Origin: Minisyncoccota bacterium
GTDB lineage: Bacteria; Patescibacteriota; Minisyncoccia; Phycocordibacterales; PALSA-1337
Direction: 5' to 3'
DNA length: 53,150 nucleotides
NCBI GenBank assembly: GCA_041662725.1
Contig: JBAZRX010000007.1
Coordinates: 1 to 53,150 of the forward strand
Part shown: positions 16,078 through 48,725 of the stretch, piece by piece
How the letters are laid out: every line of letters starts with the position of its first letter
Numbering within the stretch: the first letter of the stretch is position 1
Program-made: the position numbers and the translations under genes
The notes under the pieces: generated by a model
Databases searched by the model: none
What the model saw: the letters and a program-made list of their open reading frames with translations, nothing else
What the model was told of the DNA's origin: nothing

Positions 16078-16083
16078 CTCTAC

Positions 16084-32598: not shown

Positions 32599-32707
32599 TC
32601 GTAGAGAATGTTACTTGTCCTTCATAGCTGTGGTGAGTGAAACGAGTCAATGATGAAGATAGAGAGTTGTGTTTGAGAGGAGAAATGATGTAACAATATA
32701 TATTCCC
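32599..32707. repeat. 109-bp intergenic element, copy A
   Basis: Ungapped alignment to 33448-33556 with 22 mismatches by manual count. Confidence 0.85.
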
Positions 32708-33447: not shown

Positions 33448-33556
33448 TCGTAAAGGATGTTACCTGTCCTTCATAGCCGTGGCGAGCAAAGCGAGTCAAT
33501 GGCGAAGAAGGAGGACTGTGTTTGAGAGAAGAAACGATGCAAGTGTCTATATTCCC
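33448..33556. repeat. 109-bp intergenic element, copy B
   Basis: Contains the hairpin CCTTC-ATA-GCC...GGC-GAA-GAAGG. Confidence 0.85.
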
Positions 33557-33892: not shown

Positions 33893-34196
33893 ACACGAAA
33901 GTATATCAGGTTAGAACTGAAAAGTCTTTGCGACACTTAAATATTTTCGCGAAATCTAACGCTGGGGTCACGACAGGTATCCATTTATGACGGTCCTTTG
34001 TGACCACGAATATTTGTGCGGAATACGAGAAAAGATAAGGCTTATTCAGGAGTTTCAGAGGGATGAAAAAGTGGCTGCGGTTTGAGCAAAAAAGTGACAA
34101 CTTTCGCGAATTTCAATCCTAACGATATTTTCGTACATAAAAATTCCTCACCGCGCTTTCGCAGTGAGGATGTGAAAACTTTGGCATTTTGATAGC

Positions 34197-35309
34197 TCAG
34201 CGGAGCGCCAGTGTTTCGCCGGCGTACTCCAAGCCCTTCGGCTTGATGACCACCTTCTTGTCGCCGTTTTCGATGTGACCGGCACGATAAGCCCGCAGTC
34301 CGAGCTTTTTCGCGACATGAACGACGGCATCAGCATGGGAATCAAGAACATAGAGAGCAAAGCCAGCTCCCATGTTGAGATTGCCGTAGGCCTCGGTGTC
34401 ATCGACCGGTCCATGCTCCTGCAGGAAGTCGAAGATCGGGAGCTGTGTTGGGAGGGTTTCGATCACGTATGTGAAAGGCTGCGTTGCTCGCATCAGCTTG
34501 CGCCAGCCATGGCCTGTGACGTTCACAGCGTAATGAACATCGACGCTCTGATTGAGGCAGTCCTCGACGAGACCGACATAAATGTGTGTCGGATCGAGAA
34601 GTGTTTCACCGTAGGTGCGGATACCGACCTTTGTTAGATAGCCCATCGGCAATTTGTCCGCGATCTTCCGCGCCAGCGTAAGTCCGTTCGCATGAATGCC
34701 GGAACTCTCGATGATGACGATCGCATCGCCGTGCCGAATCTTGTCGCTTGTGATCAGGCGTTCCTTGGGCTTGACGAGTCCCATCGCCGAACCGGAGAGC
34801 ACTACCGCTTCCGGGACCACAACACCTTTGAGGGTTGGCGTTTCGCCTCCTCCCCAAACGCACCGAGCCATGTCGCAGGCATTCTTCCAACCATTCACGA
34901 GGTCATGTGTGCGCTTCTCGTCATTGAACCAATCGGATGCGCCGACTGCGAGATGCATCGCCACCGAAAGCGGCAGAGCACCGAGAGTTACGAGATCATT
35001 CACGATCATGGCGACTGTGTCCTGCGCGATCTGGTCGTAATACGATTTGCCGGTGAGCTTGTACATCGCATCGGCGACCAGATTCTTTGTGCCAAGGCCT
35101 TCCTCGACATGGGCAAAGTAGCTTTTGGCCGCTTCGATGAGATAGGCGCTTTCGCCACGGCTCGCCTCGAGTTCCCGAAACTCACCGCCATTGAGGCGAC
35201 TGATATTACCGGCTGTTTCCCGTCCGGCAATCTGTGCCATCCGTTTGAATGGGTCCATAGCGTCATAGTTAACGCCGGTGCCCGCATAGGTCATATTCTG
35301 TTTTTTCAT
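34197..35309 (-). CDS. purM: Phosphoribosylformylglycinamidine cyclo-ligase (AIR synthetase)
   Basis: YAGTGVNY, EGLGTK, AMIVNDL, GGETP, SSGIHANG, NVTGHG, LNMGAG. Confidence 0.93.
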   Translation of the reverse strand: MKKQNMTYAGTGVNYDAMDPFKRMAQIAGRETAGNISRLNGGEFRELEASRGESAYLIEAAKSYFAHVEEGLGTKNLVADAMYKLTGKSYYDQIAQDTVAMIVNDLVTLGALPLSVAMHLAVGASDWFNDEKRTHDLVNGWKNACDMARCVWGGGETPTLKGVVVPEAVVLSGSAMGLVKPKERLITSDKIRHGDAIVIIESSGIHANGLTLARKIADKLPMGYLTKVGIRTYGETLLDPTHIYVGLVEDCLNQSVDVHYAVNVTGHGWRKLMRATQPFTYVIETLPTQLPIFDFLQEHGPVDDTEAYGNLNMGAGFALYVLDSHADAVVHVAKKLGLRAYRAGHIENGDKKVVIKPKGLEYAGETLALR

Positions 35310-35437
35310 GAATTTTCCTTTTGTTGAACTAGTTCTAATTGAATACTACCCATAGGTATTGAAAACGCAAGCCAGATTGACAATATCCCGAAAACGACTA
35401 GTCTTTAATTCCAGACAACGAAAGGAAAAATTGATCT

Positions 35438-37039
35438 ATGAAAACAATGAAAACTGCGTTGATCTCGGTGTACCACAAAGACGGTATCACTGATTTCGCG
35501 CTTGAACTGACTAAACTCGGATTCACCATATATGCCTCTGGCGGCACAGCCAAGCATCTCACAAAGGCCGGCATCAACGTCCTCGACGTCGCGACCCTAA
35601 TTGGCGGCGAGGCAATTCTCGGGCACCGGGTTGTTACCCTCTCCCGTGAAGTGCACGCCGGACTTTTAGCCCGCTATGATGTCCCAGAAGACATGGCTGA
35701 GCTTGAACGCCTCAATATTCCGTGCATCGATCTCGTGTGCGTTGACCTCTATCCGCTCGAACAGGAGATCGTCAAACCGGACAGCACGGAATCGTCAGTC
35801 ATCGAAATGACCGACATCGGCGGACCGACCATGATCCGTTCTGCGGCAAAAGGTTGCCGCGTCATCGTTTGTGATCCGGCAGACCGCCAGCCTGTAATCG
35901 AATGGCTGAAATCGGGTGAACAAAAGGACCCAGGCCTCCCCGGCAGATTATGCGCAAAAGCCGAATTCGTCGTTGCGAACTACTGCATGGCATCTGCTAC
36001 ATACCGTAGCGCAGGATGGTATCGCGGCCTTTCCGGTGAACGTGTCGCGGAATGCAAATACGGCGAAAACGCCCACCAAACACCGGCTGCGTTGTTCTCT
36101 TCGGGTATCGACGATCCGCTGGCGCTCGACAAATTCACTGTGGTTGAAGGTACGCCTCCCAGCTACAACAACTACTGCGATTTGGACCGGCTCCTGCAAA
36201 CAATGACGCATATCGTGGCCGTCTTGAGAAAAAACGACACTGAAGTTCCCTTCATCGCCTTGGGCGGCAAACACGGTAACGTCTGCGGCGCCGCCATAGG
36301 CAATGACGTCCGAGTTGTCCTCCAAGATATGATGGCTGGCGATCCGTTAGCGATCTTTGGCGGTTTGGTCATGACCAATTTCGCCATCGATGACGGGATC
36401 GCTGATGTTCTGTCGGGCAAGCTTCTCGACGGCATCATTGCTCCAGGGTTCACTGGCGACACAATCGCCAAACTCAGGCGTAAGGGCGACAAATGTCGCT
36501 TCATCTCAAATCCTGCACTCCGTTTGCAGGGCGCTGTTGACGGAAAAATGTCTCTCGACGGAGCTTCCCGCTTTCGTTATGTGAGAGGTGGATTCCTACG
36601 CCAGCCAAATTACACATTCGTGCTTGACCTCAAAGATGGGGGATGGAAAACCTACGGACAACCGTCTCTGCAAGGACTAACCGATATGTTCTTGGCTTGG
36701 GCGATCGGCAGCACGAGTAACAGCAACACGATCACGCTCGTAAAGAATAATACACTGATCGGCAACGGTGTCGGCCAACAAGATCGTGTCGGTGCAGCCA
36801 AACTGGCGATTGAGAGGGCGACTCGCTCAAAACACGACATCAACGGTGCCGTAGCCTACAGCGATTCGTTCTTCCCGTTCCCTGACGGTCCGCAGACCCT
36901 TATCGACGCCGGAGTCAAAGCAATCCTGACCTCAAGCGGCTCGGTCAAAGATCAGGCGACAATCGACGTCTGTGTCAAAAACAATGTCGCGTTGTATATG
37001 ATCCCCGATCCCATCGGGCGAGGTTTCTTCGGTCATTAA
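35438..37039 (+). CDS. purH: Bifunctional IMP cyclohydrolase/AICAR formyltransferase
   Basis: ALISVYHK, GHRVVTL, DIGGPTMIRSAAK, YGENAHQ, SYNN, KHGNVCG, SDSFFPF. Confidence 0.94.
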   Translation: MKTMKTALISVYHKDGITDFALELTKLGFTIYASGGTAKHLTKAGINVLDVATLIGGEAILGHRVVTLSREVHAGLLARYDVPEDMAELERLNIPCIDLVCVDLYPLEQEIVKPDSTESSVIEMTDIGGPTMIRSAAKGCRVIVCDPADRQPVIEWLKSGEQKDPGLPGRLCAKAEFVVANYCMASATYRSAGWYRGLSGERVAECKYGENAHQTPAALFSSGIDDPLALDKFTVVEGTPPSYNNYCDLDRLLQTMTHIVAVLRKNDTEVPFIALGGKHGNVCGAAIGNDVRVVLQDMMAGDPLAIFGGLVMTNFAIDDGIADVLSGKLLDGIIAPGFTGDTIAKLRRKGDKCRFISNPALRLQGAVDGKMSLDGASRFRYVRGGFLRQPNYTFVLDLKDGGWKTYGQPSLQGLTDMFLAWAIGSTSNSNTITLVKNNTLIGNGVGQQDRVGAAKLAIERATRSKHDINGAVAYSDSFFPFPDGPQTLIDAGVKAILTSSGSVKDQATIDVCVKNNVALYMIPDPIGRGFFGH

Positions 37040-37058
37040 ATTGACCCCGCCATTCACG

Positions 37059-37092
37059 TGCCACTCCCCTCAAGGGTGTGGCACTTTTTTAT
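37059..37092. terminator. Terminator between convergent purH and purB
   Basis: GTGCCAC..GTGGCAC stem followed by TTTTT. Confidence 0.6.
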
Positions 37093-37151
37093 TGCACAAA
37101 AAAGACTCACCCTGCTTTCACAAAGTGAGTCTACTGAATCTGCGTTGGCGA

Positions 37152-38678
37152 TCAGACACCGAGAAACGATGCCATGACTGCCGGAGCGGCCAGATACCCC
37201 TCGGCAATCTTGGCAATCTCCAGCGCTTTCTCAGCTGCCAGACCGGCATACTGGTCGGAATTGCCGCCGACCTTGCTGATAAGCGACATGACATCTTCCG
37301 GTAGTTTCGAACGGCCATCCAGTAATTCCTGATCGTGCTCATCTTCACCGATCTTTTTGATGGTATACAACCAGGAACTGCCTTGCTTGACGAGTGGAAG
37401 TGCTAGCTCATTAACAACCCTATGAGCGTCTCCTGTGTAGCCGGCCATCTGAAGTGCGATATACACCGGCTCAGCAAGTATCTCCGCACCCTGAAGCTCC
37501 AGATTGCGCTTGCAAGCTTCCGGATCAACCGAGATCCGCGCAATGAACGGCGAGTCGCCGCGCAAGAGGGTGTTCAACTGTGAGACCAGATTCACAACGA
37601 TTGTCGGAAAATCCCGAGCGATAGCGCTGTTCACCAAGTCCCGTTGATGCTCGCTTATGAGCACGTCCATGACCTTGCCGAATTCGCTCTTGGTCTTCAG
37701 CCATGTGCTCTCAAGGTTCTCGAAGTTGATCGGGTTCCTCTTGTGCGCCATGGTTGATGAGCCGACTTGGCCTTTGTCGAATGGTTCACCGAGCTCTGCG
37801 ATTTCGCTTCGCATGAGATGTCGGCCATCCCGACCGAATTGACCGAGAGAAGCCGATAGCTTCACACAAGCAAACAGATAATCGGCGAGTGGCTCAGGTG
37901 GCAGAATCTGGGTACTGATTGGCGCGGGTTTTAATCCAAGCCTTTTCAGTACCAACTGCTCGAATGTTGGGACATCCGCGTAATTGGCAACACCTGATGC
38001 AACGTCTTCCGCAGAACACGCACCAATCCCCTTTGATTTGCATCGTTCGATAATCCCGACTGCTTTCTGTGCGTTGTACGCGCCGACCGCGCCGGAGATC
38101 TTTCCCACGAGCCCATAGGCTGCTGCATTGGCACTCTCGAGATTCCGGAGAATCCTGCTCAAGATCGTGGCAAACCAGAAACCGACCGTGATTGGCAGCG
38201 CATGCTGGCCATGCGTACGACCGATCTGCTTCTGTGAGGCGAATGTCCGGGTCCGCTCAATGAAATGCCCGATGACCTTGTCCGCCAAAGGCTTGACGAC
38301 CTCGGTGTGAGCGCGGAGGAATTGAAGCGACCGCGCCGTATCGAGAACGTCATAGCTTGTGAGCGGAACATGAATCCATCGGCGAAGGCCGAGGGGTGAA
38401 CGCTCTTGAGCCAAGCGAACCCAGGCACGGATGTCGTGTTTGGTAATCTTTCGCTCAACTTCATCAACTTCGCTCGTTGTGATAGAGAGAAGTTTTTGTT
38501 CGACTTCCGGCGTGAGAAGAACGATGTCGGCGGGAGGAATAACTCCGATGTCCGCCAACGTCCTCATGGTTGCGATTTCTACTTCGGCCACACACCTGAA
38601 AAGGTTGTCGTAGCCGAAATGCCCTTGTAGGTCTTTCGGTTGATACCGGGGGTTGCCCGGCAATGATAAGTTAGGCAT
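37152..38678 (-). CDS. purB: Adenylosuccinate lyase
   Basis: TKHD, LTSYD, GRTHGQHA, GSSTMAHKRNP signature, HQRDL. Confidence 0.93.
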   Translation of the reverse strand: MPNLSLPGNPRYQPKDLQGHFGYDNLFRCVAEVEIATMRTLADIGVIPPADIVLLTPEVEQKLLSITTSEVDEVERKITKHDIRAWVRLAQERSPLGLRRWIHVPLTSYDVLDTARSLQFLRAHTEVVKPLADKVIGHFIERTRTFASQKQIGRTHGQHALPITVGFWFATILSRILRNLESANAAAYGLVGKISGAVGAYNAQKAVGIIERCKSKGIGACSAEDVASGVANYADVPTFEQLVLKRLGLKPAPISTQILPPEPLADYLFACVKLSASLGQFGRDGRHLMRSEIAELGEPFDKGQVGSSTMAHKRNPINFENLESTWLKTKSEFGKVMDVLISEHQRDLVNSAIARDFPTIVVNLVSQLNTLLRGDSPFIARISVDPEACKRNLELQGAEILAEPVYIALQMAGYTGDAHRVVNELALPLVKQGSSWLYTIKKIGEDEHDQELLDGRSKLPEDVMSLISKVGGNSDQYAGLAAEKALEIAKIAEGYLAAPAVMASFLGV

Positions 38679-38801
38679 ATGTGGCCCTTTCTATTGTTTT
38701 TTGTTTTCTGCACTTCTCGTGTCAATACTACTCAAAAGTATCGAAAAGGCAACAAAAAAACTCCGGGAGGTGTGACCCGGAGCGTGTAACTAAACGTGCT
38801 G

Positions 38802-40109
38802 TCACCAACTCATACCTGTCAGACGTTTCTCCTGGTCAAAGCGCAAGGCGGCATAGATGCTCGGATTGCGGATAGCCAGGATTTGCAGCGCCGCAAGCAC
38901 GGCATTCCCCGGCTCAAGGACCGTCATGGCCGGCACATTGCTCGGTGTCCGCAGTGATGACCAGACGTCTTCAGGGAATTCCTTGTACCCCGCAGGAACA
39001 GTGATAACCGGAACTGTTGAGTTCGCCGCCAAGGTGGGACCAGCACCGTTGCTTCGGCCGACATACGCGATGATCACGCTGTCGCACGGCTCTTCCTGCA
39101 AGTGTTGTTGCAACAGCTTGTATGCCAGCACCGGTTGCTTGTGAATGGAACAGGTGATCGGCAACAGTTGAAACTGCGGCTTTGGTTCCAATTTCATGAC
39201 CAGCTCTTCGACGGCCGTGAAGTGATCCTTATCGGAGCCGCACCAGACGATGAGACGCTGTGACGGGACCGTAAAGCGGTCCGTTAGTTCCGCAACTTCC
39301 CGATACTTGGTCGTAACCGTGTCGAGGTCACCACCGTCGCGATACACCTGCTTGTCGATGTAACCGCCGGAATGATCTACCACCCGCCATGAATCATTGT
39401 CGATGACGTCGGCCAGCCGGAGCTTACCTTCGGTATTGATGCCGAACTCGACCTTGAAGTCCACGAGCTTGCGCCCTTGGAGCTGCCATGCCTTCTCGAG
39501 GACCAGGAATGTCTGACGGGCGATGTCGCCCATTTGCTCGATGAGTTTCTGCTCATCGGGCTGAGTGAAGACCTGCGTCTCCGGCAAAGCCAGAAACGGC
39601 ATTGACGGCTTCTGGGCGAGGTTCGGTTGCTTGGGATCGTAAAGAAGAACCTGGGCGCCGTCGGCATCGTGAATCATGAGGGGATCGTCGCAGATGAGTG
39701 CGCTTTCCTTCCATTTCTTGCCGCTCGTCTTCAGATAGAACTCGAGGACCAACCTGGGAAAAACCTGCCCTTTCATGAGATGCGGTGCCCGCTTGAGATA
39801 CGATCCATGGGCTTCGCGCCGGACCACCACCTCATACGGCAACATGACGCATTTATCGGCAAGGAATTCGGTGGCTCCGTCCTGGCTTTCGAACGCTACG
39901 GGTATGTCACATGCCCGGAGGAGCCGGAACACGTTACAGGTCGTGCGTGTGGCCAAGGCGGCCTTGCCGTTGATGATGTCGTGCTTGGCACCGTCACCGG
40001 CCGTGATGTCGTCTTTTGATTCAATCCTGACTCTGGCAGGACTTCCCGGAATGGAGAAGATTCGTTTGGTCTTCCCCTCGTTCATTGGCTGAACTTCAGT
40101 CGTTTGCAT
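38802..40109 (-). CDS. purCE: Bifunctional SAICAR synthetase/AIR carboxylase (PurC-PurE, PAICS-type)
   Basis: EGKTK, SKDDITAGDG, GSYLKR, LVDFKVEFG, DVIDNDSWR; C-terminal GS.KD, SIHK, GRSNGAGP; probable ATG at 40109 with SD. Confidence 0.92.
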   Translation of the reverse strand: MQTTEVQPMNEGKTKRIFSIPGSPARVRIESKDDITAGDGAKHDIINGKAALATRTTCNVFRLLRACDIPVAFESQDGATEFLADKCVMLPYEVVVRREAHGSYLKRAPHLMKGQVFPRLVLEFYLKTSGKKWKESALICDDPLMIHDADGAQVLLYDPKQPNLAQKPSMPFLALPETQVFTQPDEQKLIEQMGDIARQTFLVLEKAWQLQGRKLVDFKVEFGINTEGKLRLADVIDNDSWRVVDHSGGYIDKQVYRDGGDLDTVTTKYREVAELTDRFTVPSQRLIVWCGSDKDHFTAVEELVMKLEPKPQFQLLPITCSIHKQPVLAYKLLQQHLQEEPCDSVIIAYVGRSNGAGPTLAANSTVPVITVPAGYKEFPEDVWSSLRTPSNVPAMTVLEPGNAVLAALQILAIRNPSIYAALRFDQEKRLTGMSW

Positions 40110-40163
40110 ATGTATTTTCCTTTCTTTGTACATTGGGAAGAATTCCCAAACCTGAGTCAAAAA

Positions 40164-42332
40164 CTACTCCTGGAGCAAGGGTAAGTCAAGATGGCGAATC
40201 TCCGCCTCAATCTTTTTATAATATCTTTCCCGTTGTTTGTATTGCCTCTCCAGAAATAGAATCTCTTTATCCCTATAGTCAACAATAGTTTTCTGAACAC
40301 CTCTGCCTCGCATCCGGCCGATATACTGCAGCAACTTTCCTTCAAACGAAAATGGAAATGCCAATATCAGGCAATTGATCCCCTTGATATCTAGCCCTTC
40401 TCCGAAAAATTGTCCCGTTGATAAGATAACCTTGTAGTGGCCGCCTTCGATCTGTTTGATTTTGGATGTCCGCGACGCAGCAGAATCATTCCCTGAAATA
40501 ATAATGGTCTCCAACTTGCCCTTGAGATACAGATTCAGAATTTCCAAATGATCTTTACGCTCACTCAAAACAAGCACTTGTTTACCCAATTCCACCTGTT
40601 TGAAAATATCATCCACTATCATCCTGTTGCGAGTCGTATCGAAGCAGATAATTTTGGCTAGCAATTGGAATTGATCTGTTGTGAATTTAAACGGAATACT
40701 CAAAGTCGTCGTTCGTATAATAATTTCAATGACTACCTCGACGCTTGGCACAATCGATACGAAGTCAGACATTTCCATACGGGAAATGATGTCGCCAATA
40801 AACGCATAGATTAACTTTTCATCATTATGCTTTCTTTGAGGAGTGGCGGTCAGCCCATAGATGTACTTCGGATTGAGTTGTGAGATAACCTCACGGAATG
40901 TTGATGCTGGTATGTGATGGCATTCATCAACAATGATCGTGCCGAACTGATTTTTCATATCTGATAAATCCTTCTTCCGGCCGAGACTCTGGAGTAATCC
41001 GACTGTAATCTGTTTCCCCACTTTTTTCTTGCCGCTTGAATATTGCCCGATATGAGTCTTGGCGATTCCAAGGAATGCCTGGATGCGCTCAACCCATTGA
41101 TCCAGGAGTTGCTTGCGATGGACTAGAATAAGTGCCGGTAATTTCTTTCTAGCTATAAGTTCCAAACCGATAATCGTCTTGCCACTGCCGGACGGTGCCA
41201 CGATTACGCCTTGGTCATGAGGCATGACATCTTGAATCGTTGAGATCTGAGGCAGGGTCAACTCGATCGAGCTCTTGAATAAAGTCTCCTCCACAACCGG
41301 ATGTTCAAAGCGGACCGAATATTTAATCCTGTGTTCCTCGAGAAAGTCTGTCAGTACATGCAGGAAACCGCGAGGTAGAAAAATGTTGTCGCCAGATTCT
41401 TCAACCAGCTTAAAATATTTCTCGACTTGATAGACGGATTTGCCGAGTCTGCGCTTTGTCAGGTATTCCGTATTAATGAAATTCAACTCCTCTTTCAAGA
41501 AATGGATGAGCTCAGGAACTAGCCCTGACCGCGGCATAACAATTTTATTGCTAACCAAAATATTAAGCTTCCCTGATCTCTTCGTCTCATGAAACTCTTT
41601 CCGTTCTTCCGAAAACAAAGCATTGTATACCTCATCCAATTCTACAGCTAAATGTCGTCTAATCTCACTCAAATACTCCCATTGATCAGAAAAAGCCTTG
41701 TCCGTTGTTAGATCAATGAAAACAGTGTTACCTTTCCGGACCGCCTTACTCTGAAACGGTAGCGCTATCAGATTTCCAAAACCATTCTTTGTCAGACTAT
41801 CTTGATTCGGAAAAAGCCGGTCGAAACTGACTTCTTTTTCGAATTCGGAAACATTTCGTATGCGGCGGATTATCTCAAGTCCAATCTGCCGGCTCTTATA
41901 ACATGGGTACGGTTCCGAGAAGAAAATCCAAACATGTCCGCCATTGCCGGACCGTGAACGTTCAAGATAAGCCGACAATCCAATTGCCGAGCACTGATCG
42001 ATGAATGCGCGTGATTCTTCCTTCCAATTTTCACCGTCAAAATCCGCAGCAAGAAAATGTGAAGTATTATCTTGCAAAATTGGATACACCCCAATGACAT
42101 GCTGACCGACCAAGTGTCCACGAATCACATCTTCAGTGAGAGGTATCAACCGCTTGTTCTCGAAATCCTTGAGTGTTCCGCCCCGGCGTTTGAACTCCAT
42201 GAATTCAGTCCAGTTGAATTCATACGCCGGCGCGTATCCCGATCGTCCATCTTTCTCCCAATGACGCGCATAAACATCGGCTCTTCCCCGAAATAGGGTC
42301 ATAAACAATTCGAGTTGTTGATCCTCTGTCAT
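40164..42332 (-). CDS. TOTE-type archaeo-eukaryotic primase fused to an SF2 (DEAD/DEAH-like) helicase
   Basis: FRGRADVYA, AADFD, ERSRSGNGGHVWIFF, LFPNQD, GNLIALP; APSGSGKT, DECHH, TATP, QYIGR. Confidence 0.85.
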   Translation of the reverse strand: MTEDQQLELFMTLFRGRADVYARHWEKDGRSGYAPAYEFNWTEFMEFKRRGGTLKDFENKRLIPLTEDVIRGHLVGQHVIGVYPILQDNTSHFLAADFDGENWKEESRAFIDQCSAIGLSAYLERSRSGNGGHVWIFFSEPYPCYKSRQIGLEIIRRIRNVSEFEKEVSFDRLFPNQDSLTKNGFGNLIALPFQSKAVRKGNTVFIDLTTDKAFSDQWEYLSEIRRHLAVELDEVYNALFSEERKEFHETKRSGKLNILVSNKIVMPRSGLVPELIHFLKEELNFINTEYLTKRRLGKSVYQVEKYFKLVEESGDNIFLPRGFLHVLTDFLEEHRIKYSVRFEHPVVEETLFKSSIELTLPQISTIQDVMPHDQGVIVAPSGSGKTIIGLELIARKKLPALILVHRKQLLDQWVERIQAFLGIAKTHIGQYSSGKKKVGKQITVGLLQSLGRKKDLSDMKNQFGTIIVDECHHIPASTFREVISQLNPKYIYGLTATPQRKHNDEKLIYAFIGDIISRMEMSDFVSIVPSVEVVIEIIIRTTTLSIPFKFTTDQFQLLAKIICFDTTRNRMIVDDIFKQVELGKQVLVLSERKDHLEILNLYLKGKLETIIISGNDSAASRTSKIKQIEGGHYKVILSTGQFFGEGLDIKGINCLILAFPFSFEGKLLQYIGRMRGRGVQKTIVDYRDKEILFLERQYKQRERYYKKIEAEIRHLDLPLLQE

Positions 42333-42582
42333 AACAATATGAGCCTACTACACCTCGCTAATTACCTCAATCGGCATTCATGCGACCGTAATCGCCGCCT
42401 TCTTGCCACCTGTTCGCCCCAGTGTGCGCTTTTCTGGCGCAAGTAAGGCATTTCCACGACTTCGGGCATGATTCGGGAGCGTGTGCCCGATTTCGAGGAA
42501 GTTAGTAGTCCGATTCAAAGATTAGTGAATCTATGCCGGATTTAACCTAAATTCACGCGAAAATTGCAAAGTTGCGTGAATA

Positions 42583-43098
42583 TTACTTCCTCTTCGGTCT
42601 TTCCCCTTTCAGTAACCTATCAAATGCCTCGAGATTACCCAAAGCATCATGGACAGGATTATGGTCATGCTTTGTTATACGCAAATGCTTCCAAGAGGAC
42701 GAGTCCATAAAATCTCCCGTAAGGCCGGCATAGAAATCACCAATTCTCCGCGCAGAATATCCGAACGGATTCCGGCCGAGAGTTCTCCAGAAGCTGTCAT
42801 TGATCCACTGCCAATCGAATGCAGGATTGTCGCTGACGAATTTCGGACGCTCTCCGCCGGTCATATCTGCGAGCCACTTCTCAAATTTCTCAAAAACCTC
42901 CTTCTCATCGAATACCTTTCCAGTATAAACACGAGTGGTCGGATTCTCGTCTGACCGATGGCCTTCGATGATGACACCATGGAATGTCGCCCTCGACGGA
43001 TATGCAACGGCGCCAAATTCCGTGAGCTTCCCCCTGCTCGGACATTTGCCATTGGCTTCGCAGTCAATGAAAATCAGGTTTTTGACTTCTATGCTCAT
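42583..43098 (-). CDS. DEDDh 3'-5' exonuclease (Cap18-like)
   Basis: FIDCE, AFDWQW, GRNPFG, HNPVHDA; begins 4 nt downstream of the CD-NTase. Confidence 0.85.
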   Translation of the reverse strand: MSIEVKNLIFIDCEANGKCPSRGKLTEFGAVAYPSRATFHGVIIEGHRSDENPTTRVYTGKVFDEKEVFEKFEKWLADMTGGERPKFVSDNPAFDWQWINDSFWRTLGRNPFGYSARRIGDFYAGLTGDFMDSSSWKHLRITKHDHNPVHDALGNLEAFDRLLKGERPKRK

Positions 43099-43102
43099 AA
43101 TT

Positions 43103-43870
43103 TTACCAAATAGCTTGATTCCAATTCCCTGCTAATGTTGTCTTGGCTAATTCTTTGACTTTAAGTTTTTCCGCAGCAGTTAATTCATCGGACACCTCAT
43201 TCTCTTGGTTTGCCGGATCTTTGATTGTCTTATTTTCAAAATCATTCACCAAATAATTCATTACTGTTATAAAGTTCGAAGAAGGACTAGAATTTATCAA
43301 GCCGCCCTCTTTCAAGGCTTCAATAACAGAAAGTTCAAGATAGAATGAAGGGAAATCCAATTTGTGAATCTTTCTCCAGATCTTTACAGCCTTGATATCA
43401 GGTATCCTGCCAGAGTTTTTCACATGATTTATATGCGCATCAATATTTGTCTTCGTCCAAGTCTGTGCCTTTCTTTTCCAGATTGAATGATCGAGCCCAA
43501 ACATTTGGTGCCGGACACCAGCAACGACATCAACTTTTAATCCTGTGTGGTCAATGCCTAAAGACACATTCTGCTCCCGCGCTGAATAGCCAGCTCCGTT
43601 AAATCTATTCCTCAGTGTGTTGTATACATTCTCAAGCGTGTTGCATGTACTCACCGATGGATCCAGAGATATAAATAAATCAATGTCGGTCGTGCCAGTT
43701 ATACCTGTCCCCTTTGCTAGCGAACCTGAAAGTTTCAGTGTATACGCGTGGCCATTTGCCCACGCATGGATGTGTGGCTTTAATTCATTGATCTTGTCTG
43801 CCACAATATAGGTAACATTCGGAGTATGCGCGGTAACAACATTCCGTATGTATTGATCGTTCTCGTTCAT
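43103..43870 (-). CDS. cGAS/DncV-like nucleotidyltransferase (CD-NTase)
   Basis: SGSLAKGT..DIDLF, REQNVS, VDVV, KIWR, FPSFYLEL, IKDPAN. Confidence 0.88.
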   Translation of the reverse strand: MNENDQYIRNVVTAHTPNVTYIVADKINELKPHIHAWANGHAYTLKLSGSLAKGTGITGTTDIDLFISLDPSVSTCNTLENVYNTLRNRFNGAGYSAREQNVSLGIDHTGLKVDVVAGVRHQMFGLDHSIWKRKAQTWTKTNIDAHINHVKNSGRIPDIKAVKIWRKIHKLDFPSFYLELSVIEALKEGGLINSSPSSNFITVMNYLVNDFENKTIKDPANQENEVSDELTAAEKLKVKELAKTTLAGNWNQAIW

Positions 43871-43871
43871 T

Positions 43872-44378
43872 TTATGATTCGTAGCTAGTCGTGATCATAG
43901 CGGTCACGATATCGTTTAATAAGCGCCCGCGGAAATTGGTTACAGCTGTGTGTCTTTTGCCATCAAGATTTTTCATCTGGTCATCGGGAATTCTACCCTT
44001 CTCGTACGGAGCGTACACAACGAGAGCACAGGCATCGGGTTTTTTCGAAAGAATCTCATCGATACTGTCCGACCAGTCCTGCCAAAAAACGAGGTATATA
44101 GATGCCTCTTCGGCTTTTCCAATATCGCTGACATTCTTTATTTCAAAAACATTCTTTGCACGAAAAAGCTTTGAATCTAATAGAAGGCTTCTCAAACTGC
44201 CTGCATTATCCCCTTTAGCAAATACTGCGATCTTTCGCCTTGCGAGTCCATTACCGAGACGAAATAACGCTGGTGAAATACCACGTACCCAGAGAACGGT
44301 TCCCCACACAATACCAACCAGAAGAATAATCGTCTCAATTATCCCGACATACGCTATAATCTGTAAAAATAAGGCCAT
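43872..44378 (-). CDS. Putative CBASS effector: N-terminal TM plus a Rossmann-like (NARF-like) domain
   Basis: Hydrophobic residues ~3-32; alpha/beta domain ending NFRGRLLNDI; 1-nt gap to the CD-NTase. Confidence 0.65.
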   Translation of the reverse strand: MALFLQIIAYVGIIETIILLVGIVWGTVLWVRGISPALFRLGNGLARRKIAVFAKGDNAGSLRSLLLDSKLFRAKNVFEIKNVSDIGKAEEASIYLVFWQDWSDSIDEILSKKPDACALVVYAPYEKGRIPDDQMKNLDGKRHTAVTNFRGRLLNDIVTAMITTSYES

Positions 44379-44392
44379 AATAATTTATTAAC

Positions 44393-44420
44393 TGTAAACT
44401 TGTTTAGGTTATGTTTAGGT
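44393..44420. promoter_or_regulatory. Candidate operator in the divergent CBASS/lexA intergenic region
   Basis: TAAAC-TT-GTTTA palindrome and TGTTTAGGT direct repeats at 44401 and 44412. Confidence 0.4.
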
Positions 44421-44428
44421 AGTATACT

Positions 44429-45061
44429 ATGACCATGAAAATAAAGTCAAGCATGGGTATCGGCAAACCATCAAAGCGACAAGCCGAGATACTTCACTTT
44501 GCGAGGGAGTACCGGAGAGAAAACGGCTACTCCCCTTCTTTGGTGGAGATGGCAAAACATTTTGGTATTTCTATACCCACGATTCACCAGCATGTCCATT
44601 CACTTCAAGATAAGAACCTTCTTACGATCGAAAAAGGCAAGAAGCGTTCAATCCAAGCGCTTCATAACCACAGATTACCTGGCGTCGAAATACCCCTTAT
44701 GGGATATATTGCAGCAGGAGGTCCAATCGAGGCAATCCGGGAACCAGAACCAATCGAAGTCCCCCGAAGCATGTTAACTTCTGGCTTCAATCACTACGCT
44801 TTGAAAGTCACCGGGCGGAGCATGATCGAGGAAGGCATCTCGGACGGCGACATTGTCATAGTCCGTGACCAACCAACGGTCGATGATGGGGAAAAAGCTG
44901 TCGCATATATGCCTGATAGAAACGAGGTCACCCTCAAAAAGATTTATCGAGAAAGAAATCGCATCAAATTGGTGCCTGCAAATAAATTTATGAAGCCATT
45001 TTATGAGACGAATGTCGAAATACAAGGTAAGGTCGTAGGAGTTCTTAGGAAAGAATCTTAA
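44429..45061 (+). CDS. lexA: LexA-family repressor
   Basis: wHTH (RQAEIL..GYSPS..EMA), IAAG cleavage site, GRSM catalytic Ser, TLKK catalytic Lys. Confidence 0.9.
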   Translation: MTMKIKSSMGIGKPSKRQAEILHFAREYRRENGYSPSLVEMAKHFGISIPTIHQHVHSLQDKNLLTIEKGKKRSIQALHNHRLPGVEIPLMGYIAAGGPIEAIREPEPIEVPRSMLTSGFNHYALKVTGRSMIEEGISDGDIVIVRDQPTVDDGEKAVAYMPDRNEVTLKKIYRERNRIKLVPANKFMKPFYETNVEIQGKVVGVLRKES

Positions 45062-45081
45062 TCAGTGATAAAATAAATTAT

Positions 45082-46656
45082 ATGCCATTAGTATCCATAC
45101 CAGAAGCATCAAAGTGGGCGTCAGATTATCTCGAGAAAGAGGTAACGCCGGCAAACATCTCGTACTTGGTACAGTATGGGAAGGTTAAAAAGCATGGCGA
45201 AAATGGTTCGACCATGATTGATTCCCATGATCTCAAAAATTACTACAAATCTTCACAAGGTAAACGCGAGGTGAGCTGGAAAAAACACCTCGGGAATGAT
45301 CTGAATTGGGCATTATCATTTGATCATCTTCGAGAAAAGGACACGACCAAACACGTCCACCGCCTTCACCCTTACAAAGGAAAATATATTCCCCAGCTTG
45401 TTCAATATTTCATCGACGACCACACTGACGACTTCAAGAAGCAGACCTACTTTAAACCAGGTGACATCATTCTTGATCCATTCCTAGGGTCCGGTACTAC
45501 ACTTATTCAATCGCTGGAAATGGGTATTCACTCAATAGGGATGGATGTCTCTGAATTCAACTGCATGATTGCCAGCTGCAAGGCTACACATTACGATCAC
45601 GAATATCTACAGAAGGCTATCAAGAAAATGTTAGCCGCCCTCGATTCATTCGAGCATGATAATAAGGTGCAGGATTTCGAAAATGAGCTCCTAGCAGAGC
45701 TAGCAAAATTCAATAACAAATATTTCCCAGGTTATGAATTTAAGTACCAGATGAATCAAAATAATATGGACGAGAGCTCTATTGCAACTGAAAAGCAAAA
45801 GGAATTCCTGCCTATATACCAGAAGTTGCTTAAGAAATATTCCATAAAGCTCAAACAGAATGTTTCTGACTCTTTTCTTGATATCTGGTTTATGGACAAT
45901 GTCCGCAGCGAGATTGACCACGTATTCAAAGCTGTAAAAAATGAGAAGGATGTGAAGGTTAGGAAGCTCCTTGCATTAATTCTGAGCAGAACAATCAGAT
46001 CATGCAGGGCAACCACACATAGCGATCTTGCCACCCTCAAAGAACCTCAGCTGACGACTTATTATTGCTTTAAGCATAAGAAGATTTGCAAACCGTTGTT
46101 TTCGATAAAGACGATGCTCAATCGCTATGCTTTTGACACTATGAGCCGAGTAAAAGAATTCGACCAGCTACGCAAGCCGGTGCACTACTCCGCTATTGCT
46201 GGAGACTCCAGAGCTGTAAACATTTTTGACAAGGTTGAAAAACAGAACCCTGAATTTTCAAAAATCCTTAAGAAACAGAAGATTGCCGGAATATTCTGTT
46301 CCCCGCCATATGTCGGCCAAATCGATTATCATGAGCAACATGCCTATGCCTATGATTTACTTGGATTCAAGCGAAAAGATGAACTCGAGATAGGACCGCT
46401 CCAAAATGGCCAAGGACTTGAAGCTCGACGAGCGTATGTCCAAGGCATTGCTGATGTACTAAACAACTGCAGAAAGTATTTCACAGACAATCCGGATGTA
46501 TTCTTGGTCGCTAATGACAAGTATAATCTTTACCCTGAAATCGCCGAAAAATCAGGAATGAAGATAGTAAATCAATTTAAGCGGCCGGTCTTAAATCGAA
46601 CTGAGCGCGATCGTACCCCTTATTCAGAAATAATATTCCACTTAAAATTAAAATAA
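45082..46656 (+). CDS. Amino (probably N4-cytosine) DNA methyltransferase with an N-terminal HTH-like extension
   Basis: HPYKGKY, DPFLGSGTT (motif I) preceding SPPY (motif IV). Confidence 0.9.
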   Translation: MPLVSIPEASKWASDYLEKEVTPANISYLVQYGKVKKHGENGSTMIDSHDLKNYYKSSQGKREVSWKKHLGNDLNWALSFDHLREKDTTKHVHRLHPYKGKYIPQLVQYFIDDHTDDFKKQTYFKPGDIILDPFLGSGTTLIQSLEMGIHSIGMDVSEFNCMIASCKATHYDHEYLQKAIKKMLAALDSFEHDNKVQDFENELLAELAKFNNKYFPGYEFKYQMNQNNMDESSIATEKQKEFLPIYQKLLKKYSIKLKQNVSDSFLDIWFMDNVRSEIDHVFKAVKNEKDVKVRKLLALILSRTIRSCRATTHSDLATLKEPQLTTYYCFKHKKICKPLFSIKTMLNRYAFDTMSRVKEFDQLRKPVHYSAIAGDSRAVNIFDKVEKQNPEFSKILKKQKIAGIFCSPPYVGQIDYHEQHAYAYDLLGFKRKDELEIGPLQNGQGLEARRAYVQGIADVLNNCRKYFTDNPDVFLVANDKYNLYPEIAEKSGMKIVNQFKRPVLNRTERDRTPYSEIIFHLKLK

Positions 46657-46657
46657 T

Positions 46658-47440
46658 ATGGCTCTATCAAAAGAACAAGTCAAAGCAGTCGAGGATACCT
46701 TGAAGCTCAGTCTCCGTAATAAATTTCAGAATTATAATCCTGAGCCGGCGTCGATGCCTTTCCATACACGTCTTCTTGGAAAAGACCGTCTGGCTCTTTA
46801 CGCCTTTATCCATTCGCTCAACACCAACTTCGGTAGCAGTATCTTCGAGCCGGTCGGTCTTACCCTCGCTCAAAAGAATTTCAAGATGGCCACGGCACAA
46901 GCTACGGCTGGTGAGCAGATCAGTACTGGCGCCCAAGCAGAAATTCAAAAGATCATTGATGGCCTTACAACCGCCACAACTACTCCAAACAAGAAAGACG
47001 AGGTCGAAAGGATACGAAAGGTCTGCCAAACCGGAAAAATGATCACGGTAAAACCTACGAAGGTTGATCTAATGTTTGAAGGAAAGGATGGTTCGTATTA
47101 CCTCTTTGATATTAAGACTGCAAAACCAAATGCTGGTGACTTTAAAGAATTCAAACGTACGTTGCTCGAATGGGTAGCTGTTATCTTGGCTAACAAGCCC
47201 GATGCGAAAATACATACCTTTATCGCCATTCCCTATAACCCATACGAGCCAGAACCATATACTCGATGGACAATGCGCGGCATGCTTGATCTTGAAAACG
47301 AGCTCAAGGTAGCGGATGAATTCTGGGATTTCCTAGGGGGTAAAAATACCTACAAAGACCTGCTTGATTGCTTTGAGCGCGTCGGTATTGAGCTACGAGA
47401 TGAAATTGACACTTATTTCAAGCGTTTCAATAAGAAATAG
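46658..47440 (+). CDS. Type II restriction endonuclease (TdeIII-like)
   Basis: HSLNTNFG..FE, VDL..DIKTAKPN (PD-D/ExK), PYNPY, FWDFL; 1 nt after the MTase. Confidence 0.85.
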   Translation: MALSKEQVKAVEDTLKLSLRNKFQNYNPEPASMPFHTRLLGKDRLALYAFIHSLNTNFGSSIFEPVGLTLAQKNFKMATAQATAGEQISTGAQAEIQKIIDGLTTATTTPNKKDEVERIRKVCQTGKMITVKPTKVDLMFEGKDGSYYLFDIKTAKPNAGDFKEFKRTLLEWVAVILANKPDAKIHTFIAIPYNPYEPEPYTRWTMRGMLDLENELKVADEFWDFLGGKNTYKDLLDCFERVGIELRDEIDTYFKRFNKK

Positions 47441-47443
47441 CCG

Positions 47444-47517
47444 AATGTAAACAAAGTAGGCATGTATGTTTACATCTTACGCACCAATGTAAACAAACTA
47501 GCATTTTCCTTTACATT
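47444..47517. promoter_or_regulatory. Two ATGTAAA(CA) inverted-repeat sites
   Basis: AATGTAAACAAA at 47444 and 47486; inverted TGTTTACAT at 47467 and TTTACATT at 47510. Confidence 0.5.
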
Positions 47518-47585
47518 CAAGGACGAGATGTAAGGGTTCCTTGCGCATACGCCTATCCTGCACTAGTATCAGGCTCATAATTACA

Positions 47586-48221: not shown

Positions 48222-48304
48222 ACACTCATCCGAGTCGTAATTGAGTCAATACCATTCAAAGTAGACTTTCACACGAGAGTCTATTTTTTATTCGCTTAAT
48301 TACA

Positions 48305-48559: not shown

Positions 48560-48560
48560 C

Positions 48561-48725
48561 ATGCCCGCTCAACCCTGCAAAGCACAGATGGTCCCGGCAC
48601 TGACGTCGAAAAACGAGCAGATCTTCATCGATCGCTTGATCGAGATATTGCTCATGCAGGTTGAGCCTAATGAAAATGAAAATCATCGACTTCGAAAAAA
48701 TACTCGGATTCATAACATTGTTTAG
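48561..48725 (+). CDS. Small hypothetical protein (54 aa)
   Basis: Manual translation MPAQPCKAQMVPALTSKNEQIFIDRLIEILLMQV...; starts 1 nt after the previous stop. Confidence 0.4.
   Translation: MPAQPCKAQMVPALTSKNEQIFIDRLIEILLMQVEPNENENHRLRKNTRIHNIV

What the first reader, a model, noticed from the sequence alone, without database searches (positions are those of the whole stretch)
38802..40109. Animal-type bifunctional PAICS (PurC fused to class II PurE) in a CPR bacterium
Seen: PurC is fused to a PurE domain carrying GRSNGAGP, and no purK is present in the cluster. Known: vertebrate PAICS has the same domain order and a GRSNGLGP class II motif, carboxylating AIR directly with CO2. Typical bacterial class I PurE has AGGAAHLPG and needs PurK. 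The N-terminal SKDDITAGDG..GKAA also echoes my recollection of human [10 protein letters not shown]..GKAA. This bears on the origin of eukaryotic PAICS.
Basis: partly seen in the sequence, partly recalled or inferred. Interest (0 to 1): 0.7.

Follow-up and report, generated by a model that had tools for sequence, protein, structure and literature searches.

The report
Bacterial PAICS-type purine enzyme, horizontally acquired
A groundwater CPR (Patescibacteria) bacterium carries an intact single-protein fusion of SAICAR synthetase and a PurK-independent (class II) AIR carboxylase, the same design as animal PAICS, but the fusion is common in bacteria and this copy sits in a horizontally transferred gene block.

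Summary
Window 38802-40109 (- strand) is an intact 435-aa ORF with an N-terminal SAICAR synthetase domain and a C-terminal PurE domain. The PurE domain carries class II signatures (S-x-H-K, GRSNG, SSLRxPS). No purK lies in the 53-kb contig. Solved animal PAICS are the best matches by sequence (E 1e-54 to 1e-61) and by fold.

The fusion is not rare. At least 327 species-level bacterial genomes encode it, including many CPR lineages, Xanthobacteraceae on megabase contigs, Verrucomicrobiota, Tepidisphaerales and Armatimonadota. JGI already annotates it as bifunctional.

This copy is only about 37% identical to human PAICS. Other prokaryotic fusions (the P0250 group, Armatimonadota, Woykebacteria) are about 50% identical to animal PAICS and branch next to it in NJ trees. 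So the family bears on PAICS origins, but this gene is a peripheral member.

An unreported twist is that the gene lies in a compositionally foreign block (GC3 0.60-0.70 against 0.23-0.35 in the backbone). A distant Patescibacteria contig shares that block at 83-96% protein identity while a backbone protein is 48% identical. The window's copy has cleanly lost purL-purN. The gene is under strong purifying selection (dN/dS 0.04-0.11).

Verdict: a real member of a known enzyme type, with under-recognised bacterial distribution. Moderate interest.

The parts
38802..40109 (-). purCE: 435-aa bifunctional SAICAR synthetase / class II AIR carboxylase (PAICS-type), stop codon included
   Evidence: ORF; Pfam SAICAR_synt plus AIRC; PDB phmmer 4ja0 at 4.5e-61 and 2h31 at 3.4e-54; AF2 model pLDDT 88 / pTM 0.90 with human and Bombyx PAICS as top Foldseek hits; dN/dS 0.04-0.11
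39261..40109 (-). SAICAR synthetase (PurC) domain, about aa 1-283
   Evidence: Human SAICARs-site residues are conserved: G12 K13 T14 K15, T36 A37 G38, E93, K127, K219, E221, D234, D239 S240 W241 R242, K253, R257 (residue list from PMC9376930). Stand-alone PurC structures superpose with TMt about 0.9
38805..39260 (-). Class II PurE (AIR carboxylase) domain, about aa 284-435
   Evidence: G291 S292 D295, S321-I-H323-K324 and G351-R-S-N-G355 match human G273 S274 D277, S301-A-H303-K304 and G330-R-S-N-G334. Class I has Arg where class II has Lys304. The best stand-alone structural match is T. denticola class II PurE (TMt 0.82, rmsd 2.1 A), against class I at TMt 0.68-0.73. Class I-type 2ywx shows AGLAAHLPG at the aligned loop
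40110..40192 (-). Conserved purCE upstream region: -35-like TTGACT (40189-40184), 17-nt spacer, -10-like TAGTTT (40166-40161), AGGA (40121-40118)
   Evidence: The sequence is conserved in the window, L088 and L007 right up to the deletion junction. Promoter and RBS assignment is inference from consensus only; the generic promoter scan did not list it
38760..38783 (-). Terminator-like hairpin plus T-run, 19 nt after the purCE stop
   Evidence: Similar hairpins follow purB (37103-37132) and purM (34145-34170)
37152..38678 (-). purB (adenylosuccinate lyase), bacterial type
   Evidence: Pfam and NCBIfam; best PDB match B. subtilis-type ASL 1f1o at 1e-46
35438..37039 (+). purH (AICAR formyltransferase / IMP cyclohydrolase), bacterial type
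   Evidence: PDB 3zzm at 4e-65, above human 1p4r at 7e-53
34197..35309 (-). purM (AIR synthetase), which supplies the substrate AIR
   Evidence: It is a clean presence/absence difference relative to L008 and runs X2/X3 (joint 34093 to 35375)
33963..42465 (.). Horizontally shared block (small ORF, purM, purH, purB, purCE, [purN-purL deleted], TOTE gene)
   Evidence: Collinear with L088 at 86% nt (33963-40192) and 77% nt (40195-42465). Block proteins are 83-96% identical while backbone ATCase is 48% identical. GC3 of pur genes is 0.60-0.70 against 0.23-0.35 in the backbone. PurH and PurB have relatives at 90% identity or more elsewhere, whereas backbone proteins are singletons
40192..40195 (.). 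Deletion junction: the 4,953-bp purN-purL segment present in L088 (and in L002/L005) is absent here
   Evidence: blastn coordinates; gene maps of L088 and L002; junction sequences
40164..42332 (-). TOTE-type AEP primase-helicase gene that travels with the pur block; its last ~10 codons now read into the purCE promoter region
   Evidence: Pfam AEP-TOTE at 5e-82 plus ResIII/Helicase_C; 83% aa identity to the L088 homologue; C-terminal difference seen in the junction sequences

Best explanation
Window 38802-40109 (-) encodes a functional bifunctional purine-biosynthesis enzyme of the PAICS type.

Proposed mechanism: the C-terminal class II PurE domain carboxylates AIR directly with CO2 to give CAIR, using the conserved His323 as general base and needing neither PurK nor ATP. 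The N-terminal PurC domain then ligates aspartate to CAIR with ATP to give SAICAR. Together with the adjacent purM, purB and purH, it covers FGAM to IMP.

The gene belongs to a large, mainly bacterial family of PurC-PurE(II) fusions. Animal PAICS is one branch of that family.

In this genome the gene was not inherited with the backbone. It lies in a GC-rich block (small ORF, purM, purH, purB, purCE, TOTE) that moves horizontally among Patescibacteria. This copy has lost purL-purN by a clean deletion that kept the purCE promoter region.

Shown here: domain architecture, residue conservation, fold, family distribution, compositional and identity contrasts, the deletion, and purifying selection.
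Inferred: the catalytic activities, CO2 rather than N5-CAIR as the carbon source, the promoter, and the direction of transfers.
For: - Domains and order.
- Full-length sequence match to solved PAICS is far stronger than to stand-alone enzymes. PAICS scores 1e-54 to 1e-61; stand-alone PurC 1e-23; stand-alone PurE 1e-4.
- All catalytic side chains of both human active sites are conserved.
- Class II loops H-K, GRSNG and SSLRxPS are shared with T. denticola class II PurE and PAICS, whereas class I-type 2ywx shows H-R and AGLAAHLPG.
- Confident AF2 model (pLDDT 88, pTM 0.90). Top Foldseek hits are human 6yb8 and Bombyx 4ja0. T. denticola class II is the best stand-alone PurE.
- No PurK/ATP-grasp protein was found in the window. 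None appears in the pur clusters of L002, L085 or L088.
- dN/dS is 0.04-0.11.
- Family breadth: 327 species genomes and about 80 clusters of fused proteins at 50% identity.
- HGT: GC3 contrast; block-versus-backbone identity contrast; junctions confirmed by independent contigs.
Against: - No biochemical data exist for any bacterial fused member that I could find.
- Three AIRc-site positions differ from human: T275 to D293, S276 to K294, L335 to A356. S276 is a phosphate contact.
- The contig lacks purF, purD, purN/T and purL. The purL-purN deletion raises the possibility that the pathway is incomplete in this organism.
- purK or a class I purE elsewhere in the genome cannot be excluded from one 53-kb contig.
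- dS between copies is high (0.3-1.2), so selection cannot be assigned to the window's own lineage after the deletion.
Confidence: 0.8

Rival explanations
1. The pur block is a decaying remnant in this genome. After loss of purL-purN, and with no purF or purD on the contig, the remaining genes including purCE no longer support de novo synthesis. They are either on the way to pseudogenisation or kept only for a partial route, for example AICAR to IMP.
For: Clean 4.95-kb purN-purL deletion relative to L088, L002 and L005. No early-step genes in the window. Relatives show progressively smaller clusters (purCE-purB only in L001 and L004). CPR bacteria commonly lack nucleotide biosynthesis (general knowledge).
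Against: All four remaining ORFs are intact with conserved catalytic residues. The promoter-like region, RBS and terminators are retained. Family-wide dN/dS is 0.04-0.16. Early-step genes may lie elsewhere, as purF does, about 5 kb from the block in L088.
Confidence: 0.15
2. The PurE domain works as a class I-like N5-CAIR mutase. It would use N5-CAIR made by a PurK encoded elsewhere, or formed non-enzymatically at high CO2, rather than acting as a true AIR carboxylase.
For: Some archaeal class I-like PurEs function without PurK, and class assignment from sequence can be ambiguous (PMC3261824). By overall phmmer score the PurE domain is about as close to class I-type M. jannaschii 2ywx (3.5e-5) as to T. 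denticola class II (6.2e-5).
Against: All three discriminating loops are class II. Structurally it is closest to T. denticola class II (TMt 0.82 against 0.68-0.73). It groups with PAICS at E 1e-13 to 1e-16 for the domain alone. No purK appears in any of the examined pur clusters.
Confidence: 0.05
3. The bacterial fused family descends from a eukaryotic PAICS transferred into bacteria (eukaryote to bacterium) and then spread. Bacterial copies, including this one, would then say nothing about the origin of the fusion.
For: Earlier work read archaeal class II PurE as transfers from eukaryotes (PMC3261824). The unrooted fused-protein tree cannot by itself exclude a root on the eukaryotic stem. Only NJ trees were possible.
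Against: Eukaryotes form one clade (BS 95-100). That clade sits inside a ladder of prokaryotic lineages: the P0250 group, Armatimonadota, Woykebacteria and P0225 (BS 67-100). The same holds with a stand-alone PurC outgroup (BS 77). Prokaryotic fused diversity is far larger, about 80 clusters at 50% identity against about 3 for eukaryotes among the top 150. Named eukaryotic members found were almost all animals.
Confidence: 0.2
4. The locus is an artefact: a eukaryotic or foreign high-GC fragment mis-joined to a low-GC CPR contig.
For: Abrupt GC change from 37% to 54% at 34150 and back at 40160.
Against: Independent contigs span both junctions at even depth. The same gene order sits within CPR backbones in L002, L007, L008 and L088. 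Bacterial RBS and terminators are present. The neighbours PurB, PurH and PurM are bacterial-type.
Confidence: 0.02

Closest known systems
Animal PAICS (human 2H31/6YB8/7ALE; Bombyx mori 4JA0)
   Same: Same domain order (SAICAR synthetase then AIR carboxylase) in one chain of about 425-435 aa. Catalytic residues of both sites are conserved. Best full-length sequence and fold match.
   Different: Only about 37% identity to human. Foldseek TM is about 0.66, lower than the per-domain matches to stand-alone PurC and PurE structures. There is an extra segment of about 20-30 residues at aa 145-185, with pLDDT 60 for residues 161-170. P-loop is GSDKD rather than GSTSD. It is encoded in a bacterial gene block with its own RBS and terminator. 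Octameric assembly was not tested.
Prokaryotic PurC-PurE(II) fusions already in databases (Xanthobacteraceae such as Rhodoplanes and Pseudolabrys, Verrucomicrobiota, Tepidisphaerales, Armatimonadota; CPR Vogel-, Taylor-, Uhr- and Woykebacteria)
   Same: Same architecture, 59-97% identity for the window's own clade, and the same invariant motifs. JGI annotates them as phosphoribosylaminoimidazole carboxylase / SAICAR synthase.
   Different: This copy sits in a transferred, GC-rich block with a TOTE gene and lacks purL-purN. In Xanthobacteraceae none of the tested pur genes lies within 10 kb of the fusion.
Treponema denticola PurE (3RG8/3RGG), the characterised stand-alone bacterial class II AIR carboxylase
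   Same: Shares the H-K, GRSN and SSLRxPS loops. It is the best stand-alone structural match (TMt 0.82, rmsd 2.1 A).
   Different: It is stand-alone, not fused to PurC. Only about 22% identity.
Class I PurE (N5-CAIR mutase; E. coli 1QCZ/1D7A, A. aceti, S. aureus 3ORS) working with PurK
   Same: Same PurE fold and the universally conserved catalytic His.
   Different: Class I has H-R and AAHLPG-type loops and needs PurK. These features are absent here, and matches are weaker (E 1e-3 to 0.2; TMt 0.68-0.73).

Membership tests
PAICS-type bifunctional enzyme (SAICAR synthetase + AIR carboxylase) | Single polypeptide with an N-terminal SAICAR synthetase domain and a C-terminal PurE domain | tested here: met
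   Pfam PF01259 (aa 26-146 plus a second stretch) then PF00731 (aa 328-445) in one 435-aa ORF
PAICS-type bifunctional enzyme (SAICAR synthetase + AIR carboxylase) | Full-length homology to solved PAICS that exceeds homology to stand-alone PurC or PurE | tested here: met
   4ja0 at 4.5e-61 and 2h31 at 3.4e-54, against the best stand-alone PurC at 1e-23 and PurE at 1.4e-4. Foldseek top hits are 6yb8 and 4ja0 at E 1e-32 to 7e-35
PAICS-type bifunctional enzyme (SAICAR synthetase + AIR carboxylase) | Conserved SAICARs ATP-site and CAIR/Asp-site residues (human G16 K17 T18 K19, E97, K131, K191, E193, D207, D212-R215, K228, R232) | tested here: met
   20 of the 24 listed positions are identical. N43 to D, F129 to Y, D133 to S and M190 to F differ, and D137 falls in a gap (list from PMC9376930)
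PAICS-type bifunctional enzyme (SAICAR synthetase + AIR carboxylase) | Octamer built on a PurE core, with CAIR transfer between the two sites | not tested
   Only a monomer was modelled. The C-terminal helix (aa 416-429) is present
PAICS-type bifunctional enzyme (SAICAR synthetase + AIR carboxylase) | Both catalytic activities demonstrated | not testable with these tools
   Needs an enzyme assay or complementation
Class II PurE (AIR carboxylase, EC 4.1.1.21) | 40s loop S-x-H-K (Lys after the catalytic His; class I has Arg) | tested here: met
   S321-I-H323-K324 aligned to human S301-A-H303-K304. The Arg/Lys difference is stated in PMC10484210. H323 and K324 are invariant in 46 homologues
Class II PurE (AIR carboxylase, EC 4.1.1.21) | 70s loop G-R-S-N-G instead of the class I G-x-A-A-H-L-P-G | tested here: met
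   G351-R-S-N-G355 matches human G330-R-S-N-G334 and T. denticola GRSNA. Class I-type 2ywx has AGLAAHLPG at the aligned position
Class II PurE (AIR carboxylase, EC 4.1.1.21) | Closer in structure to a characterised class II enzyme than to class I enzymes | tested here: met
   T. denticola 3rgg/3rg8 at TMt 0.81-0.82 and rmsd 2.0-2.2 A, against A. aceti and T. maritima class I at TMt 0.68-0.73 and rmsd 2.9-3.9 A
Class II PurE (AIR carboxylase, EC 4.1.1.21) | Organism lacks PurK | tested here: inconclusive
   None in the 53-kb contig or in the pur clusters of L002, L085 and L088. The rest of the genome is not available
Class II PurE (AIR carboxylase, EC 4.1.1.21) | Uses AIR plus CO2 directly, not N5-CAIR | not testable with these tools
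   Needs a biochemical assay
Class I PurE (N5-CAIR mutase, EC 5.4.99.18) | S-A-H-R and A-A-H-L-P-G loops, with a PurK partner | tested here: not met
   Both loops are class II type. No PurK nearby. NCBIfam purE equivalog model scores 60 bits against a cut-off of 150
Horizontally transferred genomic block | Composition unlike the host backbone | tested here: met
   GC 0.54 against 0.37, and GC3 0.60-0.70 against 0.23-0.35
Horizontally transferred genomic block | Much higher identity between genomes for the block than for backbone genes | tested here: met
   Against L088: PurCE 95%, PurB 96%, PurM 91%, PurH 83% and TOTE 83%, but ATCase 48%. Nucleotide identity is 80-87% for the block and 65-73% for the backbone against L007 and L008. 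Only block proteins have relatives in the 90% clusters
Horizontally transferred genomic block | Defined ends, repeats or an integrase that explain the mobility | tested here: inconclusive
   Sharp homology ends at 33963 and 42465, but no terminal repeats. A large serine recombinase lies 7 kb away beside tRNA-His. It is 94% identical (aa) to the one in L007 and has GC3 0.68. Its link to the block is unproven

The most novel reading that the evidence does not exclude
The PurC-PurE(II) fusion arose in bacteria, and animal (eukaryotic) PAICS descends from a bacterial fused gene acquired by horizontal transfer. Its nearest living relatives would be in Armatimonadota-like and CPR (Woykebacteria) lineages. 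The window shows that such purine modules still move as cassettes among Patescibacteria, here together with a TOTE defence gene, and are being trimmed module by module (purM, purL-purN and TOTE are each clean presence/absence differences between genomes).
Probability: 0.45. Interest if true: 0.65.

Novelty: new member of a known kind. Interest (0 to 1): 0.42.

Why it matters
Reviews still present PAICS (class II PurE fused to PurC) as the eukaryotic solution and PurK plus class I PurE as the bacterial one. That contrast underlies proposals to target PurK/PurE with antibacterials (PMC10484210, PMC10912719, PMC3261824).

The data here show a large, mostly uncharacterised bacterial family of PAICS-type enzymes. 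Animal PAICS appears as one branch of it in NJ trees. This makes the origin of PAICS testable with proper phylogenetics and offers small bacterial PAICS proteins for biochemistry.

For CPR biology, it shows that late purine-biosynthesis genes can be gained and lost as horizontally moving modules in organisms usually regarded as nucleotide auxotrophs.

For this particular locus, the enzyme itself is an ordinary member of that family.

Tried and rejected
- Exact-product look-up of the 435-aa protein found nothing, probably because of a different start call.
- Literature searches found no paper describing bacterial fused PAICS-type enzymes. The terms covered bacterial PAICS, purCE, class II PurE in CPR, and HGT of PAICS.
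- The T. denticola PurE paper and the human PAICS structure paper are not held. The 'six distinguishing residues' of Mathews et al. therefore could not be checked one by one.
- Rfam found no riboswitch or other RNA apart from tRNA-His.
- The generic promoter scan found nothing upstream of purCE. The promoter proposal rests only on a conserved TTGACT-17-TAGTTT seen by eye.
- No terminal direct or inverted repeats lie at the block ends.
- No match to the tRNA-His sequence that might mark an att site appeared among the repeats reported by the repeat finder. No dedicated search with the tRNA sequence was run.
- Searching with the lone non-animal eukaryotic sequence P0310 returned only animals and unnamed proteins, so eukaryote breadth stays unresolved.
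- Deep nodes of all NJ trees are unsupported. No ML software was available.
- The idea that the whole module is eukaryote-like was rejected, because PurB, PurH and PurM match bacterial enzymes best.
- Assembly chimera was rejected.
- The 109-nt repeat near the island folds only weakly.
Full report
OBSERVATION.

The reported feature is real and sits at the stated coordinates. The ORF listing gives an open frame at 38802..40160 on the minus strand. That length and N-terminus match the homologues, which are 432-440 aa. An AGGA lies 8 nt upstream.

Pfam finds SAICAR_synt (E 2.8e-41) followed by AIRC/PurE (E 2.6e-17). The quoted motifs GRSNGAGP and SKDDITAGDG...GKAA are present. HMMER aligns them to the human PAICS strings GRSNGLGP and [10 protein letters not shown]...GKAA. 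Every ORF of 300 aa or more in the window was scanned, and none is a PurK/ATP-grasp protein.

WHAT THE PROTEIN IS.

Against all solved structures, the best sequence matches are the two animal PAICS enzymes: Bombyx 4ja0 at 4.5e-61 and human 2h31 at 3.4e-54. Stand-alone PurC (1e-23) and stand-alone PurE (1e-4) score far lower.

I took the published lists of human active-site residues (PMC9376930) and mapped them onto the window protein. In the AIR carboxylase site, G291, S292, D295, S321, H323, K324 and G351-R-S-N-G355 are conserved. Three positions differ: T275 to D, S276 to K, and L335 to A. In the SAICAR synthetase site, 20 of 24 listed residues are identical, including the GKTK ATP loop.

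The catalytic His is universal in PurE. The following Lys (Arg in class I; PMC10484210) and the GRSNG loop are class II features. Class I-type 2ywx shows H-R and AGLAAHLPG at the aligned positions. T. denticola class II PurE shares H-K, GRSN and SSLRxPS with the window protein.

An AlphaFold2 model built on 46 homologues is confident (pLDDT 88, pTM 0.90). Its top Foldseek hits are human and Bombyx PAICS over the full length. Among stand-alone PurEs, the T. denticola class II enzyme fits best (TMt 0.82, rmsd 2.1 A), ahead of class I enzymes (TMt 0.68-0.73).

Whether a PurK exists elsewhere in the genome cannot be decided from one contig.

HOW COMMON IT IS.

The fusion is widespread in bacteria. 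A search of 5.8 billion proteins returned 2,731 hits. All of the best 120 are fused proteins at 59-97% identity, and several are annotated by JGI as the bifunctional enzyme.

A scan of one genome per GTDB species found relatives in 327 genomes. They include:
- CPR lineages: Parcubacteria, Paceibacterota, Taylorbacteria, Vogelbacteria and MAGs labelled Saccharibacteria.
- Many Xanthobacteraceae (Rhodoplanes, Pseudolabrys), on contigs of up to 5 Mb.
- Verrucomicrobiota and Tepidisphaerales.

An exhaustive search of 50%-identity cluster representatives gave about 80 distinct clusters of full-length fusions among the top 150. Further named clusters are Uhrbacteria, Minisyncoccia and Woykebacteria/Microgenomates.

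The searchable literature still treats the fusion as eukaryotic (PMC3261824; PMC10912719). I found no paper describing the bacterial family.

RELATION TO ANIMAL PAICS.

The window protein is about 37% identical to human PAICS. It groups robustly only with other Patescibacteria sequences: BS 100 with P0002 and P0004, 99 with P0007, and 72 with P0010 and Vogelbacteria.

Other prokaryotic fusions are much closer to animals:
- P0250 is about 50% identical to animal PAICS. It sits in a plainly prokaryotic operon, purH-purCE-purM-purS-purQ-purL-guaB-guaA, with overlapping genes.
- Its relatives include Armatimonadota MAG proteins on contigs of over 100 kb.
- Woykebacteria (CPR) branches just outside this group.

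In NJ trees the eukaryotic clade has BS 100. It consists of animals, one EukProt sequence, and a TARA group on a gene-sparse scaffold with a divergent PPAT-like neighbour. It is joined successively by these prokaryotic groups:

| Group added | Bootstrap |
|---|---|
| P0250 group | 67 |
| Armatimonadota groups | 36-38 |
| Woykebacteria | 78 |
| P0225 | 100 |
| A further prokaryotic clade | 98 |

A PurC-domain tree rooted with M. jannaschii PurC gives the same nesting (BS 77, 77, with eukaryotes at 95), although deep nodes are unresolved.

This favours a bacterial origin of the fusion, with later transfer to eukaryotes. The caveats are that only NJ was available and that eukaryote sampling was almost all animal. 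The neighbouring PurB, PurH and PurM are ordinary bacterial types, so only the fusion resembles the animal enzyme.

GENOMIC SETTING.

The window is a complete 53,150-bp contig from a groundwater metagenome.

Its backbone (1-34100) is 37% GC. It encodes IleRS, ArgRS, SHMT, ThyA, DHFR, FolD, NusG, RecO, ATCase and DHODH. It is syntenic at 65-73% nt identity with Taylorbacteria and other Patescibacteria MAGs.

The four pur genes form a 54% GC island. Their GC3 is 0.60-0.70, against 0.23-0.35 for backbone genes. Independent Logan contigs span both junctions without mismatch at even depth, so this is not a chimera.

The block is shared with other Patescibacteria at much higher identity than the backbones:
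- 80-87% nt identity against L002, L007 and L008.
- At the 90% protein-cluster level, backbone proteins are singletons, whereas PurH and PurB have partners on other contigs.

The clearest case is L088, an 81-kb contig with the layout TOTE | purL purN | purCE purB purH purM. Window 33963-40192 and 40195-42465 are collinear with it.

| Protein | Identity to L088 |
|---|---|
| PurCE | 95% |
| PurB | 96% |
| PurM | 91% |
| PurH | 83% |
| TOTE | 83% |
| ATCase (backbone) | 48% |

The window thus carries the same block minus a 4,953-bp purN-purL segment, at a 2-nt junction. The deletion preserved the conserved purCE upstream region (TTGACT, 17 nt, TAGTTT, then AGGA and ATG). It also replaced the last residues of the TOTE protein.

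Other modules are also clean presence/absence differences between genomes. purM is absent in L008 and in runs X2/X3. TOTE is absent in L007.

purCE is under strong purifying selection (dN/dS 0.04-0.11). Synonymous divergence between copies is high (dS 0.3-1.2), yet the window's copy keeps a GC3 far from its host's. This implies arrival from an unsampled, GC-richer donor more recently than the copies diverged from one another. That last step is inference.

No terminal repeats mark the block. A large serine recombinase lies 7 kb away beside tRNA-His. It has GC3 0.68 and is 94% identical in protein sequence to the one in L007. Its role is unproven.

MECHANISM.

Most likely (confidence about 0.8), the protein converts AIR to CAIR with CO2 in the class II PurE domain, with His323 as general base and no ATP or PurK. 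It then converts CAIR to SAICAR with ATP and aspartate in the PurC domain. PurM feeds it, and PurB and PurH carry the product on to IMP. The backbone folate genes (SHMT, FolD, DHFR) could supply the 10-formyl-THF that PurH needs. CO2-rich groundwater would suit a class II enzyme; that point is inference.

The main open question is whether the pathway is complete in this organism after the loss of purL-purN (rival, 0.15).

VERDICT.

The protein is a member of an already annotated, widespread bacterial family, and it is not specially related to animal PAICS. The family-level pattern (animal PAICS nested among bacterial fusions) and the modular, horizontally moving pur/TOTE block in Patescibacteria are the points worth following up.

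Noticed in passing
window 1868-5518 (-); also L001 2194-5970: The isoleucyl-tRNA synthetase carries a complete histidine-phosphatase (His_Phos_1) domain inserted at aa 565-731. The same architecture occurs in a related Patescibacteria contig.
   Followed up: partly
window 40164-42332 (-): A TOTE conflict-system AEP primase fused to a ResIII/helicase domain. It travels with the pur block (83% aa identity in L088) and is a clean 2.2-kb presence/absence difference relative to L007. Its last ~10 residues were replaced when purL-purN was deleted.
   Followed up: partly
window 42583-51309: A variable defence and mobile region at 41-52% GC. It holds an Rv2179c-like exonuclease, a SMODS-like nucleotidyltransferase, a LexA/S24 repressor, an N6/N4 DNA methylase with a TdeIII restriction enzyme, and a large serine recombinase (49640-51247) whose 3' end overlaps tRNA-His (51237-51309). 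The recombinase has GC3 0.68. L007 shares the recombinase (94% aa identity) and the exonuclease but has different cargo in between.
   Followed up: partly
window 33987-34085 (+); L088 and L008: A conserved 32-codon small ORF (MTVLCDHEYLCGIREKIRLIQEFQRDEKVAAV) lies at the left edge of the shared block, convergent with purM. It has the same length in three genomes. Against L088, 8 codon differences are synonymous and 2 nonsynonymous; against L008, 3 and 4.
   Followed up: partly
window 49292-49606: Three copies of a 22-nt repeat (GCCAAAATAGAT...), spaced 90 and 201 nt apart, lie just upstream of the serine recombinase gene. They could be binding sites.
   Followed up: no
window 32599-32707 and 33448-33556: A 109-nt direct repeat (80% identical) lies upstream of two consecutive minus-strand genes, one of them DUF4304. 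Its predicted structure is only weak (-4.75 kcal/mol consensus).
   Followed up: partly
L085/L086 (JGI 3300020193 and 3300020200), 8464-18653: An unnamed prokaryote carries a compact operon, purH-purCE-purM-purS-purQ-purL-guaB-guaA. Its fused PurCE is about 50% identical to animal PAICS and is the closest prokaryotic relative of the animal enzyme found here.
   Followed up: partly
L087 (TARA scaffold), 3870-9272: An intron-less 423-aa PAICS lies beside a divergently oriented PurF/PPAT-like gene on a gene-sparse scaffold. This resembles the animal PAICS-PPAT head-to-head arrangement, in an unidentified marine eukaryote.
   Followed up: no
L001 11437-12892: In this relative, purB next to purCE is called as two genes (ADSL_C and Lyase_1 on separate products). 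This suggests a frameshifted or split purB.
   Followed up: no
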